Position numbers and translations under genes: made by a program
Shown: piece after piece, positions 10,553-47,682 of the stretch
Position numbering within the stretch: position 1 is the stretch's first letter
Layout: each line of letters begins with the position of its first letter
Source of the DNA: Promethearchaeati archaeon SRVP18_Atabeyarchaeia-1
GTDB lineage: Archaea > Asgardarchaeota > Atabeyarchaeia > Atabeyarchaeales > Atabeyarchaeaceae
Assembly: GCA_037308085.1 (NCBI GenBank)
Contig: CP147779.1
Coordinates: forward strand, 416,001 to 480,000
DNA length: 64,000 nt
Direction of reading: 5' to 3'
Notes under the pieces: generated by a model
Database searches by the model: none
The model's input: only the letters and a program-made list of their open reading frames with translations
Told to the model about the DNA's origin: nothing

Positions 10553-11322
10553 TGAGTTTAATCAGACAATCAATTCCAACCAAACTGATTAACGACAATG
10601 GTTTGAGATTGAGCGGAAGAAAGCTTGATGAACTCAGACCAACGAAACTCGAAATGGGTACACTAAAAAGAGCTGACGGATCTGCATATATTGAACAGGG
10701 AAAGAACAAGATACTTGTCGCAGTCTATGGTCCGAGAGAGGTGCATCCCGCGCACCTTGCCCTTCCAGATAGATGCTTGCTGAGGTGCGTCTATCGCATG
10801 GCCTCCTTCTCAGTTGAAGAAAGAAAGAGTCCTGCCCCAGGGCGCCGTGAGATAGAGCTGTCTAAAGTGATAAGAGAATCTCTTGAACCATCACTATTCC
10901 TTGAAGAGTTCCCTCGCGCTGGAATAGACGTCTACATCCAGATACTGCAGGCTGATGGTGGCACGAGGTGTGCAAGTATCACAGCCGCATCTCTGGCGCT
11001 AGCAGACGCGGGCATCCCCATGCGGGACTTGGTAGTTGCTTGTGCAGCCGGAAAAGTTGAAAACCAGATTCTCTTAGACATCGACGATGCAGAGGACAAA
11101 TATGGAAGCGGCGACATGCCTGTCGCCATGATGCCAAGAAAGAACGAGATCACCCTGCTTCAGCTCGACGGCATCTTCTCGCCAGAGGAATTTCAGAAGG
11201 CACTAGAACTGGCACAGCAAGGTTGCATGCAGCTATACGAAAATCAGAGAAACGTGATCAAGGAGAAGTACAAGACAATACGCGATGAAGTCGCCACAGA
11301 CGAGAAGAAGGAGAAACAATAA
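10549..11322 (+). CDS. rrp41: Exosome exonuclease Rrp41
   Basis: [27 protein letters not shown]. Confidence 0.96.
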
Positions 11323-30225: not shown

Positions 30226-30510
30226 GGGTCCGTAGCTCAAGGTGGAAGAGCGCGAGTCTAGCTCCCACCCTTGCGGGGAGTTCAAATAGAGATTAGTGAA
30301 ACGAATGACTTGTCAGAAAAGTCATGCCGTATAACCAGGAAAGGGTGATTGCTTCAACTTCGCGAGATCTGCGCCGTAATCATTTCTATAGAAACCTTAT
30401 GTATCCCAGTTGGTGATCTTGCGATGCCAATGATCTTTCTTGGTGAGATTGTTTTCGACAGGACATTATTCACGATTGACTTGGCAAACTAGGTGCTAGA
30501 TCTGGACTCA
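30226..30510 (+). pseudogene. tRNA-like element (intact 5' half, degenerate or expanded remainder)
   Basis: GGGTCCGTAGCTCAAGGTGGAAGAGCG start; possible acceptor partner TGGACTC-A at 30503-30510; no canonical T-loop. Confidence 0.4.
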
Positions 30511-30658: not shown

Positions 30659-31582
30659 TTGAGGACTAACACAGTCCATCCGAATTTGAGGACTAAGTAC
30701 TTCCTTGCAATTGACACGAAAGAAAAAGCGTATTGGCTCGGATTTCTGTTCGCCGATGGCTGTATCATAAGACACCCCAGAACAATACAGATTCAACTCA
30801 AACTTAGACGAGCCGACGAAGAAACCATTGACAGATTCTGCGAGTGTCTCAGGCTTGAAAAGGGCAAAAAGGATTACGTTCGAGAACGCGAAAAGGATGG
30901 AACAATATCAGAGAAGATCAGAATCAGATTTGCCAGCAGAGAAATGGGAAGGAGTCTCCTAAAGCACGGGTTAGAGTTTCGGAAATCGAAAATCATTGAA
31001 TATCCGAGATTACCCCGTCGACATCTGGAGCTTGCGTTTCTATTGGGATACTATGATGGCGATGGACTGCAGAATACGACAAGAATCAACTCCGGCAGCG
31101 TCCGATTTCTGGAACAGGTCAAGGAGAGATTCAACTTGCCTTACAAAATCCAGTTGAATAAACGCAAAACCGTATTTCATGGCAGAGAGATAGAAGGCAC
31201 AGAGTACTACATGTGCTTGGGCCCTGAGCTGTTCAATGAGATGATGAGAGACTATGCAGGAAGCATGCCTAGGAAACGTTGGTTCCCATGCGATTCAAAG
31301 GAAAAACTGCGCAGGCACCGTGAGGCTTGCACATCCGAAATGACTCAGAGAAGAAGAGGACTGCAGAAGGATTGGAGAGCCATCACGAGGGATAAACTAG
31401 AAAGATTAGTATGGCAAATGCCGTTAGCACATATCGCCATTAGATACAACGTCAGTAATGTGGATGTTATAGCGAAAAAGTGTGAGAAGCTTGGTGTTTC
31501 CAGACCAGAACATGGTTACTGGCAAAGACAATACTGGATAAACCGGAGATCCTTAGGAAAGAGTTCAATACAGAATAAATAG
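30659..31582 (+). CDS. Free-standing LAGLIDADG-like endonuclease
   Basis: AYWLGFLFADGCI and AFLLGYYDGDG motifs; C-terminal HTH-like tail. Confidence 0.85.
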   Translation: MRTNTVHPNLRTKYFLAIDTKEKAYWLGFLFADGCIIRHPRTIQIQLKLRRADEETIDRFCECLRLEKGKKDYVREREKDGTISEKIRIRFASREMGRSLLKHGLEFRKSKIIEYPRLPRRHLELAFLLGYYDGDGLQNTTRINSGSVRFLEQVKERFNLPYKIQLNKRKTVFHGREIEGTEYYMCLGPELFNEMMRDYAGSMPRKRWFPCDSKEKLRRHREACTSEMTQRRRGLQKDWRAITRDKLERLVWQMPLAHIAIRYNVSNVDVIAKKCEKLGVSRPEHGYWQRQYWINRRSLGKSSIQNK

Positions 31583-31828
31583 TTCCCTACTTCGAAGTGA
31601 AGGAAATAATATATCCTCTCCGCGATATTCTCCTTTTTTCCCTCCTTCTTCAATCTCTGCTGAGAATTCTTGATTCCCTGCAACCCCATTTACGAACATC
31701 ACTACTAGGTATTTCAAAACTTCAATTCTGTCCCAGATAACCCCTGGTCATGGCTAAGGTTTCTGTAATCTGAAGAGGGAGTTGAAGGATACACCTTATA
31801 TACATGTTTTTGGCAACTCATCTAACGC

Positions 31829-32042
31829 GGGTCCGTAGCTCAAAGCGAAGACATCAAGGTGCGTCTTCACTGGCAAAGCTTGGCTAGAGCGTTCGGCTGA
31901 ACATCAAGAGCAACTGGAAGAGATGGGCCAATAACCGAAAAGGGAAGGCTCAGTCAGGAGAAGCCTGCCGTAGGGAAAGATCGCGAGTCCGAAACTCGCC
32001 AGGGGGAAACCCCACCGAGCGGATGTCTCGCCGGACCCACCA
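31829..32042 (+). tRNA. tRNA-Ile(GAU) with four introns (31843-31877, 31901-31931, ~31940-31977, 31994-32025)
   Basis: Spliced 78 nt GGGTCCGTAGCTCAGCTTGGCTAGAGCGTTCGGCTGATAACCGAAAGATCGCGAGTCCGAATCTCGCCGGACCCACCA; three inserts show BHB folds, the third is weak. Confidence 0.85.
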
Positions 32043-32067: not shown

Positions 32068-32144
32068 GGGCCGGTAGCGCAGGCTGGAAGTGCGCCGGCT
32101 TCGCAAGCCGGAGGTCGTGGGTTCAAATCCCACCCGGTCCACCA
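32068..32144 (+). tRNA. tRNA-Ala(CGC), intronless
   Basis: Cloverleaf, CCGGC-TT-CGC-AA-GCCGG, G3:U70, encoded CCA. Confidence 0.95.
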
Positions 32145-32446: not shown

Positions 32447-32809
32447 TAATATAAACTCCCATGAAACCGGTTGATCCTGCCGGACCCAACCGCTATCGGA
32501 GTGGGACTAAGCCATGCTAGTCGAGCGCCTCGGACTATGGCGAGGCGCGGCGTACGGCTCAGTAACACGTGGTTAACCTAACCTCCGGACGGGGATACCT
32601 CCGGGAAACTGGAGCTAATACCCGATAGGTGAATAGTTCTGGAATGGCTTTTCACCCAAACGGCTTTGACACCATGTTTGCCAACGTCGCCAGAGGATGG
32701 GACCGCGGCCGATTAGGCTGTTGGTGGGGTAACGGCTCACCAAACCGACAATCGGTACGGGCCGTGAGAGCGGTAGCCCGGAGATGGGGACTGAGACAAG
32801 GCCCCAGGT

Positions 32810-32846
<37 letters not shown>

Positions 32847-32985
32847 TGGAAACAGCGACGGGGCTACTCCGAGTGCCGTCCGCTAAGGGCGGCTTTTCCA
32901 CAGTATAAAAAGCTGTGGGAATAAGGGGAGGGCAAGGCTGGTGCCAGCCGCCGCGGTAAAACCAGCTCCTCGAGTGGTTGGGATG

Positions 32986-33016
<31 letters not shown>

Positions 33017-33198
33017 TTGTAAGTCCTTGGCTAAATCCGTCAGCCTAACTGACGGCGTGCTGAGGATACTGCTTGGCTTGGGGGCGAGAGAGGCTGAGGG
33101 TACTACTGGGGTAGGGGTGAAATCCTATAATCCCAGTAGGACCACCTGTGGCGAAGGCGTTCAGCTGGAGCGCGCCCGACGGTGAGGGACGAAAGCTA

Positions 33199-33232
<34 letters not shown>

Positions 33233-33333
33233 TAGCTGTAAACTATGCGGGCTAGGTGTTGGAGCGGCCACGTGCTGCTCCAGTGCCGAAGGGAAGCCGT
33301 TAAGCCCGCCGCCTGGGGAGTACGGCCGCAAGG

Positions 33334-33375
<42 letters not shown>

Positions 33376-33481
33376 AAGCCTGCGGTTTAATTGGACTCAA
33401 CGCCGGGAAACTTACCGGGGGCGACAGCAGAATGAAGGCCAGGTTGACGACCTTGCTTGACAAGCTGAGAGGTGGTGCATG

Positions 33482-34392
33482 AGGCCTTCAGGTCGTCCTA
33501 AAACTCTTCGCGGCTTCCTCTAACCTCTCTACGATGTGACTCATAGTCGTCTCTGTAGGAAGGCTGTTGACAAGTGTTGGCGAGGGAGTTCAAATGAACT
33601 CGCTTGTGCCTTTCTTAGGAGGGGATCATGACGATCGTTGACGACAAGAGGAAGTATGTTCTGGTCAAAACGAAGAGTCTTATCCGTCGTCTGCGCCAAC
33701 AAGACTGTGGGGCTCTGCAAGGAGTATACAGGCACGTTGATGACTTGGTTGAGTGGAATACCTTTCGAGACTGGGCGTATAGAGGCTGCTTCCGGATGCC
33801 TCTCAACGTGTTCGCAAGGTTGAAGAAGACATATGAGATCAAGGACGTGCCGCGAGTGGTCACAGAGACTCAATGGTACGCAGAGACACGCAAGAGAGCA
33901 GCAAGAATAATGCACGAACGCCACCCCCATAAGGAGTGGCTATCGCGAGCAGCGAAGGCTGGCGGTGAAGCTGTAAAAGCCAAGTACGGGATCAGGTATC
34001 TGACAAAACTCTCTGGATCTGCCATACATTCATCAGCCAGATACCGATACAAGGATGGATATGGAATAGAATACCGTAGCCGCCTGGAACTGCGGGTTGC
34101 GGATTTGCTGCGCAAACATGGATACAAATTCGATTATGAACCGGAGATAGATGGATACATCCCTGACTTCCTAATCAACCACACAATAATCGAGGTTAGC
34201 GGATACTTTCGCGACCACGATTATCTTTCAAGACTCCAGATCAAACTTGCAGACCTAACCACTAAGGGTTGGGATATCATCGTTGTATGTGAACCGCGAA
34301 ACAAAGCTGCTCTCCAGCAGGCGCTCGTAGGAATACGAGTCAAGGCAATTATGACAACGGATGAGTTCGGACGATGGCTGTAGGTCTGCGAA
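33482..34392 (+). mobile_element. 911-nt BHB intron in 16S (about E. coli 1057/1058) carrying an ORF
   Basis: Central helix TGCA/TGCG, bulges TGA and AAG; excision restores GGTGCATGGCCGTCG. Confidence 0.9.
33628..34383 (+). CDS. Intron-encoded PD-(D/E)xK-like endonuclease
   Basis: C-terminal YRS.LE..VA..L...G....YEP....YIPDF....IIEVSG; basic N-terminal half. Confidence 0.7.
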   Translation: MTIVDDKRKYVLVKTKSLIRRLRQQDCGALQGVYRHVDDLVEWNTFRDWAYRGCFRMPLNVFARLKKTYEIKDVPRVVTETQWYAETRKRAARIMHERHPHKEWLSRAAKAGGEAVKAKYGIRYLTKLSGSAIHSSARYRYKDGYGIEYRSRLELRVADLLRKHGYKFDYEPEIDGYIPDFLINHTIIEVSGYFRDHDYLSRLQIKLADLTTKGWDIIVVCEPRNKAALQQALVGIRVKAIMTTDEFGRWL

Positions 34393-34849
34393 GCCGTCGT
34401 CAGTTCGTGCCGTGAGGTGTCCTGTCAAGTCAGGCAACGAACGAGACCCCTGCTTACAGTTGCTACCAGGCTTAGAAATGGGTCTGAGCACACTGTAGGG
34501 ACTGCCGGCGATAAGCTGGAGGAAGGAGGGGGCCACGGCAGGTCAGTATGCCCCGAATCCCCCGGGCCACACGCGGGCTGCAATGGTTGGGACAATGGGT
34601 TCCGACCCCGAAAGGGGAAGGTAATCCCGAAACCCAATCTCAGTTGGGATCGAGGGCTGCAACTCGCCCTCGTGAACATGGAATCCCTAGTAATCGCGCG
34701 TCATCATCGCGCGGTGAATACTGTCCCTGCTCCTTGCACACATCGTGTCTAGGAAGCGCTTAGCGCGAGTGTAGACCGCCCGTCGCTCCACCCGAGTCGG
34801 GTTAGGGTGAGACGTAGCCTTTTTGGCCACGTCGAACCCAGGCTCGGCA

Positions 34850-34880
<31 letters not shown>

Positions 34881-35341
34881 AGACTCCGTAGGGGATGCTT
34901 GTGATTGTGATGGGGTGGCATCCGCCTTTTGCTTTGTATGCAACGACTTTGTTGCGGCTTGAGGTGTTCTCGTAGGTTCCGTGTTGCGCGTCTGATGTGT
35001 TTGGGATGCGTTTCCGAGGTTTCGTTTGTCTCCTTGGAGTCCGGTAAGGGGAACCTGCGGCTGGATCACCTCCTATGAATCCCCACCCGTTAGGGTGGGG
35101 TTCTTCCGCCGCGATTGTTGCCGAGGGGTTGGCTTACATGATTGTTGTGGGGTTTCGAGCCCGCCTACCTGCTTCTCACTGCTCATTTTGTTTTCCTGGT
35201 TATCCGATTAGCCATGTTATTGTCTAGCATTTGCTTTCTCTTTTCTGGATGGCTTCGGATTCGGAAAGCTGGGCGTGTTACTGTAGTTGGTGACCTTTAA
35301 TGTCATCATCCATGACTAGATGATTGTGAGCTACGAACTCC

Positions 35342-38866: not shown

Positions 38867-42207
<3,341 letters not shown>

Positions 42208-42641
42208 TGAAATTCCTTGGTTCGGGTGAAATTGGGTTTCTGGGGACGTTCTGGGGGTGGAGCCTAGTGCACGGCTGTTGCCGCTTCCGTTTTCTGCAGT
42301 TGCCTCTCTTGAGTACGTGTGACCATATTTCTCAACAGAGATTCCTGTCTGAGAGGAACCAGATTTACTCGAACAGTTTTCCTTGGCGCTCGAGAGTTTG
42401 GATTTACCGCACTGTGTCAGAGAGGGGGGAGAGAGTGTGTAACGGGGAAGCGCGTTCATCCACACTGATGTCAGGGTGGCTGGATGCATGAGAAGTACGG
42501 CGGTAACCACAACCCATCTTGATGGTGCTCTGCTTGAACTCTCCATCCTTGGCGCCAAATGAGAATATTCGAAAAGTATATCTGGTTGGTGCTCCAATAC
42601 CGCTTCTTGATTTGATGATATGGTGATGGAGGGAATGGTCT

Positions 42642-46649: not shown

Positions 46650-47682
46650 ATTCCTTGAACTCCTCTCGTCTTCTGCTTAGCTTCTCCTTTGTCGCTGCCA
46701 CGATCAGTGGGAAGCCTATGGTGACATCTGTGATCACGTCAACCCATTCAGCTTCCGGTTTTACCTTCCCCCATGACTGGGCCTCTTGAAGTGAGGCCCC
46801 ACTCAGCCCTCCAGGCTCGGGTCTATCCATCGTGAGTTGAATAGCGTAGCTTAGCGCTCGGCCAGTCAACATCGCTGCCTGGAGGATGAAATTCTTTGGC
46901 ATACCTCCTCCGAGGAAAACACCTCCGACTTTCTTCGACTCAAAGTACAAATCCATTATCTTCTGCAGGTCTCTACGGAGATCTATTTTAAGTTCATTTT
47001 GCTGTGAGAACATCCAGATGTGAAGGCCCAGTATTGAATCGAATATGCCTGGGCAAAAAACCGTGACCCCCTTCTTCGCTGCAGTCTTCAGTATCGATTC
47101 TTCGTCGTCTAGCATCGTTCCGATCATGTGCAGTAGCTCGTAGGAACCTAATCCCTCTCTCCGCCTATCTTCGTCTATAGAAGAAAAGCAGTCTCGTATT
47201 CTGGTCTCGAACCCTTCAAAAGCCTCATCCCTCACGAAAGCATCGAAAATCCTGTTTATGCCAACCTCCCTGAGCGCAGCGTCCCCCACTGAGATTATGC
47301 CTTTCTCGTGTTTCCAGCCAAAGGCTTCAACTAACTCGTGGGTGATGTTGGCACCCGTCAAGACTACGATGTTAGCCATATCTTCATCCACTATGTCTCT
47401 TATGACTTTTCTCAGCCCGCCAGGAACAAGGGCGCCAGCGACGCCCATGAACTTCAGAACCTCCTTGTCTGAGATCATTCCCTCATAGATCTCCACTGCC
47501 CTGCTTATGCGCCCCGCACCGAATACTCCCGATCTGCCCATTTCATCGACAAGTTCTCCCACGCTCATGCCCGCACGGATCTTCATTTGCTCAACATACT
47601 TTCTCTCCAAGATTCCTGCACCACCAAACTGGCTGCAACTCGTCGGAGTTTGAAGCATTCCATCATACAACTGACCTAGCAT
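46642..47682 (-). CDS. Deoxyhypusine synthase (true start probably near 47610)
   Basis: GALVPGGLR, TGANITHE, LGGG.PKNF, GGLSGA...EA.SWGK. Confidence 0.92.
   Translation of the reverse strand: MLGQLYDGMLQTPTSCSQFGGAGILERKYVEQMKIRAGMSVGELVDEMGRSGVFGAGRISRAVEIYEGMISDKEVLKFMGVAGALVPGGLRKVIRDIVDEDMANIVVLTGANITHELVEAFGWKHEKGIISVGDAALREVGINRIFDAFVRDEAFEGFETRIRDCFSSIDEDRRREGLGSYELLHMIGTMLDDEESILKTAAKKGVTVFCPGIFDSILGLHIWMFSQQNELKIDLRRDLQKIMDLYFESKKVGGVFLGGGMPKNFILQAAMLTGRALSYAIQLTMDRPEPGGLSGASLQEAQSWGKVKPEAEWVDVITDVTIGFPLIVAATKEKLSRRREEFKEFG

What the first reader, a model, noticed from the sequence alone, without database searches (positions are those of the whole stretch)
31829..32042. tRNA-Ile(GAU) with four introns, one splitting the anticodon
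Seen: inserts at 14/15, 35/36 (GA|T), ~43/44 and 59/60, so the anticodon only exists after splicing. The third insert lacks a clear BHB and may need prior splicing of its neighbour or be nested. The T-loop reads TCCGAAT rather than TTCGAAT.
Basis: seen in the sequence. Interest (0 to 1): 0.7.

Follow-up and report, generated by a model that had tools for sequence, protein, structure and literature searches.

The report
Unannotated four-intron isoleucine tRNA gene
This is a real isoleucine tRNA gene of the Asgard archaeon Atabeyarchaeia-1, cut into five pieces by four small introns, one inside the anticodon. Standard finders and the published tRNA list miss it, but tRNA genes broken up this heavily are already described for this lineage.

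Summary
Window 31829-32042 (+) holds five exons (14, 23, 8, 16 and 14 nt, plus an encoded CCA) separated by introns of 35, 31, 38 and 32 nt at positions 14/15, 35/36, 43/44 and 59/60.

- **Product:** the joined exons give a perfect 75-nt cloverleaf, tRNA-Ile(GAU). It aligns without gaps to intron-free tRNA-Ile(GAU) genes of other Asgard archaea.
- **Conservation:** four homologues keep the exons 93-96% identical while the introns are 60-64% identical. Intron 4 is absent, base-exact, from Atabeyarchaeia-2.
- **Splicing motifs:** intron 4 has a strict bulge-helix-bulge (BHB) motif. Introns 2 and 1 have relaxed HBh' motifs. Intron 3 has only a 2-bp central helix, though it sits in the same register as its homologues. 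Folding gives no support for the idea that removing intron 2 creates a BHB for intron 3.
- **Enzymes:** the genome encodes two EndA paralogues and RtcB.
- **Annotation:** the genome is the published complete Atabeyarchaeia-1 genome. Its tRNA table lists no tRNA-Ile(GAU), and ARAGORN and Rfam also miss the gene.
- **Novelty:** four-intron tRNAs are tabulated for this lineage, and a 2026 preprint reports up to five. This scan has also reported several four-intron Asgard tRNAs on other DNA. This is a new member of a known kind.
- **Oddity:** C55 in the T-loop is real, derived and rare.

The parts
31796..31802 (+). TATA-like box TTATATA, centred about 30 nt upstream of the tRNA 5' end; likely archaeal promoter
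   Evidence: Read directly from the sequence. The block GGATACA(C/G)CTTATATA is conserved at the same distance in G001 and in L030 and L031. Promoter function is inferred.
31829..31842 (+). Exon 1: tRNA positions 1-14 (5' acceptor strand, U8 A9, 5' D-stem strand, A14)
31843..31877 (+). Intron 1 (35 nt) at 14/15, with a relaxed HBh' motif: central helix 3 of 4 bp, bulges CA^A and AA^G, and 8 of 9 h' pairs
   Evidence: Present in all six homologues. The h' helix is kept by different sequences in each homologue.
31878..31900 (+). Exon 2: positions 15-35 (D-loop, 3' D-stem strand, G26, 5' anticodon-stem strand, C32 U33 G34 A35)
31901..31931 (+). Intron 2 (31 nt) at 35/36, inside the anticodon. HBh' motif: central helix GGCT/GGCC 4 of 4 bp, bulges GA^A and AA^T, h' helix CATC/GATG
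   Evidence: The position is fixed at 35/36 by G002, where no shift gives the same product. The joined sequence is contiguous in many other Asgard genomes.
31932..31939 (+). Exon 3: an 8-nt micro-exon, positions 36-43 (U36 A37 A38 and the 3' anticodon-stem strand)
   Evidence: identical in all four complete homologues
31940..31977 (+). Intron 3 (38 nt) at 43/44, with a weak motif: central helix only C39:G and C40:G, bulges AA^A and AA^A, 7 of 9 h' pairs. A run of A's makes boundaries from 41/42 to 44/45 give the same product.
   Evidence: Same register as G002 (3 of 4 central pairs), L030 and L031. Folding gives the motif low probability.
31978..31993 (+). Exon 4: positions 44-59 (variable loop AGATC, 5' T-stem strand, T-loop T54 C55 C56 G57 A58 A59)
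   Evidence: C55 is unique among the 31 tRNA-like T-arms found in this genome.
31994..32025 (+). Intron 4 (32 nt) at 59/60, with a strict hBHBh' motif: h 5 bp (the T-stem), H 4 of 4, h' 4 bp, bulges AA^A and TG^T
   Evidence: (present in the minimum-energy fold). Present in L030 and L031; absent, base-exact, from G002.
32026..32039 (+). Exon 5: positions 60-73 (U60, 3' T-stem strand, 3' acceptor strand, discriminator A73)
32040..32042 (+). Genome-encoded CCA end
   Evidence: Also encoded in G002 but not in L030 or L031.
32068..32144 (+). Neighbouring intron-free tRNA-Ala(CGC), 25 nt downstream and just ahead of the 16S rRNA gene; syntenic context
   Evidence: The same order, Ile then Ala then the rRNA promoter, is seen in G002, L030 and L031.

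Best explanation
This is the functional gene for tRNA-Ile(GAU), the only one found in the complete genome of the Asgard archaeon Atabeyarchaeia-1 ('Ca. Atabeyarchaeum deiterrae'). It is transcribed, probably from the conserved TATA box about 30 nt upstream, as a precursor of at least 214 nt carrying four protein-spliced archaeal introns at 14/15, 35/36, 43/44 and 59/60. The splicing endonuclease EndA recognises a BHB or relaxed HBh' motif at each intron and cuts inside the two 3-nt bulges. The genome has two EndA paralogues, so the enzyme is probably the broad-specificity (alpha-beta)2 type. RtcB then joins the five exons, including an 8-nt micro-exon. Only after that does the GAU anticodon exist. 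The product is a 75-nt tRNA with an encoded CCA end that would read AUU and AUC codons. Shown here: the exon structure, its conservation, the motifs, and the presence of the enzyme genes. Inferred: transcription, the actual cuts, any order of splicing, and function of the mature tRNA despite C55.
For: 1. The spliced product is a perfect cloverleaf, tRNA-Ile(gat), in both the window and G002.
2. It aligns without gaps to intron-free tRNA-Ile(GAU) genes of other Asgard families, 62-64 of 75 identical. The exon 2-exon 3 join is contiguous in dozens of Asgard genomes; six carry the identical 20-mer, and the reversed control gave no hits.
3. Homologues lie at the same locus, upstream of tRNA-Ala and the rRNA genes, in Atabeyarchaeia-2 and in two metagenome contigs. 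Exons are 93-96% identical and introns 60-64%. The acceptor pair 4:69 covaries (T-A versus C-G).
4. Intron 4 is present or absent at a base-exact junction.
5. BHB-type motifs fall exactly on the homology-defined junctions in every homologue. Their helices are kept by compensatory changes, for example the intron 2 h' helix TGG/CCA versus CAA/TTG, and the intron 4 central helix T55:A versus C55:G. The chance per fixed pair is about 0.0001-0.003.
6. Two EndA paralogues, each with the N- and C-terminal domains, and one RtcB are encoded.
7. No second copy of the exon sequences makes another gene. The published table for this genome has no tRNA-Ile(GAU), and a separate tRNA-Phe(GAA) gene exists.
8. 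C55 also occurs in uninterrupted tRNA-Ile(GAU) genes of two other Asgard genomes, so it is not a mark of decay.
Against: There are no RNA data: neither splicing nor the mature tRNA has been seen. The intron 3 motif is weak in the window (2-bp central helix) and thermodynamically disfavoured in every form folded. C55 replaces the near-universal U55 and is unique among the 31 tRNA-like T-arms found in this genome. The window copy carries three substitutions (A21, A46, C55) that the otherwise near-invariant homologues lack. Relaxed BHB motifs taken alone are no rarer here than in shuffled sequence. A divergent, equally hidden second tRNA-Ile(GAU) gene cannot be strictly excluded.
Confidence: 0.9

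Rival explanations
1. Splicing is ordered: intron 3 becomes a substrate only after intron 2 is removed, because the newly joined U33-G34-A35-U36 can pair with R46-U47-C48-G49 and so supply the missing outer helix of the intron 3 motif.
For: After intron 2 is removed in silico, the outer helix of intron 3 grows from 2 to 4 consecutive pairs in all four homologues. [quoted passage not shown]
Against: In partition-function folds the probabilities of these pairs and of the central helix stay at or below 0.06 in the unspliced form, the form lacking intron 2, and the form lacking all other introns, for all four homologues. The complementarity involves only conserved tRNA positions, so any tRNA-Ile(GAU) with a RUC variable loop followed by G49 would show it.
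Confidence: 0.2
2. The window copy is a decaying or poorly functional gene. C55, the degraded intron 3 motif and three private substitutions would then reflect relaxed constraint.
For: C55 is unique among the 31 T-arms found in this genome. The intron 3 central helix is reduced to 2 bp. The window has three private exon changes against none to two in the homologues. A tRNA-like fragment and a LAGLIDADG gene lie just upstream.
Against: All cloverleaf stems are perfect. The C55 change is matched by a compensating A-to-G change in intron 4. A21 is the usual tRNA consensus. L030 and L031 have the same 2-bp intron 3 helix. No other tRNA-Ile(GAU) gene was found in a complete genome. C55 also occurs in intact tRNA-Ile(GAU) genes of G006 and G164.
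Confidence: 0.07
3. Intron 3 is cut one nucleotide further in on each side, in the register that gives a canonical 4-bp central helix in Atabeyarchaeia-2. That would leave a 77-nt tRNA with a 7-nt variable loop.
For: The shifted register has 4 of 4 central pairs in G002 and 3 of 4 in the window.
Against: The two extra nucleotides are not conserved (AA, TC, TA, TA), whereas every exon position around them is. The shifted register has only 2 of 4 central pairs in L030 and L031. Intron-free relatives have a 5-nt variable loop and align without gaps to the 75-nt product.
Confidence: 0.04
4. The anticodon-region intron is cut at 36/37, giving anticodon GAA (Phe) rather than GAU.
For: Both boundary choices leave a 7-nt anticodon loop in the window sequence.
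Against: The 36/37 register has no central helix, which I checked by hand. The BHB register puts the cuts at GA^A and AA^T. The G002 sequence allows only 35/36. The body matches tRNA-Ile genes. The published table lists a separate tRNA-Phe(GAA) gene at genome 367105-367276.
Confidence: 0.01

Closest known systems
Multi-intron tRNA genes of Atabeyarchaeia and Freyarchaeia (Valentin-Alvarado et al. 2024, Nat Commun, PMC11291895, Supplementary Data 4)
   Same: It is the same genome: the published tRNA coordinates equal ARAGORN's on this assembly. The paper reports that 92-95% of tRNA genes carry introns, that more than half carry several, and that many sit at non-canonical positions. Four-intron genes are tabulated (Atabeyarchaeia Lys-TTT, Freyarchaeia Arg-TCT and Ile2-CAT).
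   Different: This gene, and its orthologue at 459473-459658 of Atabeyarchaeia-2, are not in that table. The table lists no tRNA-Ile(GAU) for either Atabeyarchaeia genome. Here one intron lies inside the anticodon triplet.
Census of hidden intervening sequences in Asgard tRNA genes (bioRxiv 10.64898/2026.10.13.758758)
   Same: It reports an average of 2.2 intervening sequences per tRNA gene in these families, up to five in one gene, frequent misses in the D-arm, two EndA paralogues in most genomes, and weaker motifs at variable-region insertions.
   Different: That census inspects only genes that tRNAscan-SE detected. By the authors' own stated limitation, a gene 'disrupted beyond recognition' is invisible to it. 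The present gene appears to be such a case. I could not run tRNAscan-SE myself.
Multiple-intron tRNA genes of Thermoproteales (Sugahara 2007 and 2008; reviews PMC4033280 and PMC4090602)
   Same: Protein-spliced BHB, HBh' and hBH introns at non-canonical positions, including 59/60, cut by an (alpha-beta)2-type EndA with relaxed specificity.
   Different: The reviews give a maximum of three introns per gene. The organisms are a different phylum and are thermophiles, whereas this one comes from wetland soil. Positions 14/15, 35/36 and 43/44 are not among those named in the review text I could read.
Intron-free tRNA-Ile(GAU) genes of other Asgard archaea (for example L038 and L037)
   Same: They are collinear with the spliced product, 62-64 of 75 identical. 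Six genomes share the identical 20-mer across the exon 2-exon 3 join (D-stem end to 3' anticodon-stem strand). L037 shares the TCCGAAT T-loop.
   Different: They have no introns.

Membership tests
Archaeal protein-spliced (BHB) tRNA introns / multiple-intron tRNA genes | Joined exons form a canonical cloverleaf tRNA of normal length | tested here: met
   ARAGORN calls the spliced product tRNA-Ile(gat), with all stems perfect. It aligns without gaps to intron-free tRNA-Ile genes.
Archaeal protein-spliced (BHB) tRNA introns / multiple-intron tRNA genes | Each exon-intron junction pair lies in two 3-nt bulges flanking a 4-bp helix (strict hBHBh') or a relaxed HBh'/hBH form | tested here: inconclusive
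   Intron 4 is strict (H 4/4, h 5, h' 4). Intron 2 is HBh' (H 4/4, h' 4). Intron 1 is relaxed (H 3/4, h' 8/9). Intron 3 has only H 2/4 with h' 7/9, in the same register as G002, which has H 3/4. Three introns meet the feature; intron 3 is marginal.
Archaeal protein-spliced (BHB) tRNA introns / multiple-intron tRNA genes | Exons conserved and introns divergent among relatives, with precise presence or absence of introns | tested here: met
   Exons are 93-96% identical against 60-64% for introns. Intron 4 is absent, base-exact, from G002. The exon 2-exon 3 join is contiguous in other Asgard genomes.
Archaeal protein-spliced (BHB) tRNA introns / multiple-intron tRNA genes | The host encodes a splicing endonuclease able to cut relaxed motifs, and an RtcB-type ligase | tested here: met
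   Two EndA paralogues of 209 and 241 aa, each with PF02778 and PF01974, and one RtcB gene. The (alpha-beta)2 assembly and broad specificity are inferred, not tested.
Archaeal protein-spliced (BHB) tRNA introns / multiple-intron tRNA genes | Introns are removed in vivo to give the mature tRNA | not testable with these tools
   No RNA data are available here.
tRNA-Ile(GAU) | Anticodon GAU in a 7-nt loop with U33 and A37, discriminator A73, and a body similar to known tRNA-Ile genes | tested here: met
   The anticodon exists only after intron 2 is removed.
tRNA-Ile(GAU) | Universal T-loop T54-U55-C56 | tested here: not met
   Position 55 is C. The homologues G002, L030 and L031 have T55. C55 also occurs in intact tRNA-Ile(GAU) genes of G006 and G164.

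The most novel reading that the evidence does not exclude
The only tRNA-Ile(GAU) of this organism works with C55 in place of the near-universal U55/pseudouridine-55, or needs C-to-U editing there. The same TCCGAAT loop occurs in tRNA-Ile(GAU) genes of two other Asgard lineages. In this genome the exon change is matched by an A-to-G change in intron 4 that keeps the central BHB helix fully paired. That would be exon-intron co-evolution reaching into one of the most conserved tRNA positions.
Probability: 0.5. Interest if true: 0.4.

Novelty: new member of a known kind. Interest (0 to 1): 0.33.

Why it matters
It is a concrete case of a gene 'disrupted beyond recognition' for standard finders, a gap that the newest census of Asgard tRNA introns admits it cannot see. 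The same simple signature scan turned up three more unlisted tRNA genes in this genome, so tRNA complements and intron counts for these lineages are still underestimated. The locus also offers natural test material for EndA specificity: an intron inside the anticodon, an 8-nt micro-exon between two introns, one very weak motif, and a compensated C55.

Tried and rejected
- **Direct detection:** ARAGORN, with and without its intron option, and Rfam tRNA at gathering score or at E up to 10, do not call the locus.
- **Anticodon GAA (Phe) reading:** rejected on the motif register, on the G002 sequence, and on the existence of a separate Phe gene.
- **Neighbour splicing creating a BHB for intron 3:** partition-function folds of the unspliced form, the form lacking intron 2 and the form lacking all other introns give the motif pairs a probability of 0.06 or less in all four homologues. 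The nested-intron idea was rejected because the 8-nt exon 3 is needed and invariant.
- **Shifted register for intron 3:** examined and rejected on conservation.
- **The same-genus genome G001:** its contig ends inside intron 2, and the 3' half is not assembled.
- **Metagenome contig L029:** it has exons 1-4 but no 3' exon within 3.8 kb, and its T-loop reads TTTGAA, so I left it out of the comparisons.
- **Exhaustive in-silico splicing search:** the script timed out. I replaced it with reading the sequences by eye.
- **Copies of the introns elsewhere in the genome:** none found.
- **C/D-box guide in an intron:** I saw no C or D box motifs by eye. The only Rfam hit is a chance-level snoRNA match on the opposite strand (E 7.3).
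- **tRNA-like element at 30226:** no convincing 3' acceptor partner within 1.6 kb and no homologue in the fetched loci.
- **Literature on 35/36:** searches found no statement that this position was catalogued before. Marck and Grosjean 2003 and Sugahara 2007 are not held, so the novelty of the position is unresolved.

Full report
**What is there.** The window is archaeal. It holds intron-bearing 16S and 23S rRNA genes, RNase P RNA and two tRNA-Ala genes. Neither ARAGORN nor Rfam, even at E up to 10, reports anything at 31829-32042. Read by hand, the stretch starts with a 5' acceptor strand and D-stem and ends with a T-stem strand, the complementary acceptor strand, A73 and CCA. Four inserts separate five tRNA pieces:

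| Piece | Coordinates | Length | tRNA positions |
|---|---|---|---|
| Exon 1 | 31829-31842 | 14 nt | 1-14 |
| Intron 1 | 31843-31877 | 35 nt | at 14/15 |
| Exon 2 | 31878-31900 | 23 nt | 15-35 |
| Intron 2 | 31901-31931 | 31 nt | at 35/36 |
| Exon 3 | 31932-31939 | 8 nt | 36-43 |
| Intron 3 | 31940-31977 | 38 nt | at 43/44 |
| Exon 4 | 31978-31993 | 16 nt | 44-59 |
| Intron 4 | 31994-32025 | 32 nt | at 59/60 |
| Exon 5 + CCA | 32026-32042 | 14 + 3 nt | 60-73, then CCA |

Joined, the exons give a 75-nt tRNA plus CCA that ARAGORN calls tRNA-Ile(gat), with every stem perfect.

**Which genome.** The window is bases 416001-480000 of a single 2,808,651-bp contig. ARAGORN's tRNA coordinates on it are identical to those listed for 'SRVP_Atabeyarchaeota_1_curated.FINAL' in Supplementary Data 4 of Valentin-Alvarado et al. 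2024 (PMC11291895). The organism is therefore the complete Asgard genome Atabeyarchaeia-1. G002 is Atabeyarchaeia-2 (CP147780.1) and G001 is the MAG LC30. The paper reports that 92-95% of tRNA genes have introns and that more than half have several. Its table includes genes with four introns. A 2026 preprint reports up to five intervening sequences per gene in these families. This scan's own earlier notes list several four-intron Asgard tRNAs on other DNA. The kind of object is therefore known.

**This gene is not in the published record.** The 40-entry table for Atabeyarchaeia-1 has tRNA-Ala(CGC) at 448068-448144 but nothing at 447829-448042, and no tRNA-Ile(GAU) at all. The 43-entry table for Atabeyarchaeia-2 likewise lacks the orthologue I found at 459473-459658. 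The preprint's census starts from tRNAscan-SE calls. It says explicitly that a gene disrupted beyond recognition is invisible to it.

**Independent definition of the junctions.**
- *Intron-free relatives.* The 20-mer spanning the exon 2-exon 3 join is contiguous in dozens of other Asgard genomes. Six of them carry exactly the window's joined sequence. There were no hits to the reversed control and none in the window's own family.
- *Collinearity.* Uninterrupted tRNA-Ile(GAU) genes from eight of those genomes were aligned to the spliced product. Five align without any gap (55-64 of 75 identical; 62-64 for the two closest). The other three show only single-base gaps in the D-loop or the T-stem/acceptor region, away from the junctions.
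- *Close homologues with introns.* Atabeyarchaeia-2 and two JGI metagenome contigs (L030, L031) carry the same gene at the same place: conserved TATA block, then tRNA-Ile, then tRNA-Ala, then the rRNA promoter.
- *Exons against introns.* Exons are 93-96% identical to the window, introns only 60-64%. The acceptor pair 4:69 covaries (T-A or C-G).
- *Intron 4.* It is present in L030 and L031 but absent from Atabeyarchaeia-2, whose T-arm is uninterrupted. That fixes the 59/60 junction to the base.
- *Intron 2.* The Atabeyarchaeia-2 sequence allows only 35/36. In the window, 34/35 would give the same product. Either way the intron lies inside the anticodon.

**Splicing motifs.** I used the rule that cuts fall between the second and third base of two 3-nt bulges flanking a 4-bp helix H, with an outer exon helix h and an inner intron helix h'. 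The rule is established knowledge; describe the motif.

| Intron | Central helix H | Outer helix h | Inner helix h' | Verdict |
|---|---|---|---|---|
| 4 | 4 of 4 | 5 bp (the T-stem) | 4 bp | strict; appears in the minimum-energy fold |
| 2 | 4 of 4 | none | 4 bp | HBh' |
| 1 | 3 of 4 | - | 8 of 9 | relaxed |
| 3 | 2 of 4 (C39:G, C40:G) | - | 7 of 9 | weak |

The intron 3 motif is in exactly the register seen in Atabeyarchaeia-2 (H 3 of 4) and in L030 and L031.

The helices are kept by different sequences in different homologues. The distal part of the intron 2 h' helix is TGG/CCA in one and CAA/TTG in another. U33 pairs with G or with A. Position 55 pairs as T:A or as C:G.

A caution is needed here. 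Relaxed motifs are as common in this sequence as in shuffles of it. The argument therefore rests on their occurring at junction pairs fixed beforehand by homology. At a fixed pair the chance is roughly 0.0001-0.003 per junction.

After intron 2 is removed in silico, U33-G34-A35-U36 can pair with positions 46-49. That lengthens the outer helix of the intron 3 motif from 2 to 4 pairs in all four homologues. However, partition-function folding gives these pairs, and the central helix, probabilities of 0.06 or less in the unspliced form, the form lacking intron 2 and the form lacking all other introns. The complementary bases are also generic tRNA-Ile positions. Ordered splicing is therefore possible (the concept is known) but not supported here.

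A register shifted by one base on each side gives a canonical 4-bp helix in Atabeyarchaeia-2. It would leave two non-conserved bases and a 7-nt variable loop, so I reject it. The minimum-energy fold of the window precursor instead pairs a D-arm-like stretch of intron 3 with exon 2. I could not tell whether that pairing matters.

**Enzymes.** The genome encodes two EndA paralogues of 209 and 241 aa, each with the N-terminal and catalytic domains, and one RtcB. Two paralogues fit the (alpha-beta)2 type, which the literature links to relaxed motifs and non-canonical positions. The assembly and its specificity are inferred.

**Is it the working gene?**
- A fuzzy search for its exons finds no second gene.
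- A scan for a paired acceptor stem plus a T-arm signature recovers 27 published tRNAs, this gene, and three further unlisted genes. By their anticodon loops these read as Ile(UAU), Asp(GUC) and Ser(CGA). None is a second GAU gene.
- A tRNA-Phe(GAA) gene exists elsewhere, which also argues against a GAA reading of the split anticodon.

**C55.** The T-loop TCCGAA|T is real. Of the 31 tRNA-like T-arms found in this genome, only this one has C at position 55. Atabeyarchaeia-2, L030 and L031 all have T55, so C55 is derived. In the intron 4 motif, position 55 pairs with an intron base that is A in L030 and L031 and G in the window. The change is therefore compensated.

C55 is not confined to this genome. 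Uninterrupted tRNA-Ile(GAU) genes of G006 and G164 also read GGGGG-TCCGA. That is two of 201 Asgard genomes searched with the C55 pattern; several dozen of those genomes carry a compact gene with this anticodon arm. I read C55 as a rare, tolerated variant and not as a sign of decay. Whether the mature RNA keeps C or is edited is unknown.

**Verdict.** This is a genuine four-intron tRNA-Ile(GAU) gene (confidence about 0.9). It is a new, unannotated member of an already published kind. Its points of interest are the intron inside the anticodon, the 8-nt micro-exon, one marginal splicing motif, and a compensated C55.

Noticed in passing
G000:C1:36840-37086 (+), 508402-508574 (-), 637149-637349 (-); all outside the window: Three more tRNA-like genes that are absent from the published 40-tRNA table. 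Each has a paired acceptor stem, a GTTCRA T-arm and long inserts. By their anticodon loops they read as Ile(UAU), Asp(GUC) and Ser(CGA). The exon structures were not worked out.
   Followed up: partly
window 30226-30240 and 31829-31843; ORF 30659-31579 (+): The 15 bases GGGTCCGTAGCTCAA (exon 1 plus one base) recur 1.6 kb upstream. There they continue into a different, uninterrupted D-arm and tRNA-like fragments, with no 3' acceptor partner. Between the two copies lies a 307-aa ORF with a LAGLIDADG_3 domain (28.5 bits). This may be a remnant of a homing-endonuclease or tRNA-targeting element beside the gene.
   Followed up: partly
window 32068-32144; L021 about 389-497; L030 and L031 downstream of tRNA-Ile: The neighbouring tRNA-Ala(CGC) has no intron in this genome but carries an insert of about 30-35 nt in the D-arm region in Atabeyarchaeia-2, L030 and L031. 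This is a second intron presence/absence difference at the same locus.
   Followed up: no
L029 (reverse strand, gene start at about base 11125 of the reverse complement): A metagenome contig carries exons 1-4 of the same tRNA-Ile with introns 1-3. It has a T-loop reading TTTGAA and no 3' exon within 3.8 kb, and it is not followed by tRNA-Ala. It could be a truncated pseudogene copy or a gene whose 3' piece lies elsewhere.
   Followed up: partly
L037/L049 (G006:C8 about 47150-47230) and L051 (G164:C6 about 261590-261618): Uninterrupted tRNA-Ile(GAU) genes of two other Asgard families also have C55 (T-arm GGGGG-TCCGA). The variant therefore recurs in this isoacceptor.
   Followed up: partly
window 31946-31966 against 31878-31896: Intron 3 contains a D-arm-like stretch (GGCTCAGTCAGGAGAAGCC) that is complementary to exon 2. 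In the minimum-energy fold of the precursor the two pair extensively and compete with the cloverleaf.
   Followed up: no
window 32464-34889 and 38867-42208: The 16S rRNA match spans 2,426 nt for a 1,478-position model and the 23S match 3,342 nt for 2,987 positions. Both rRNA genes therefore carry large inserts.
   Followed up: no
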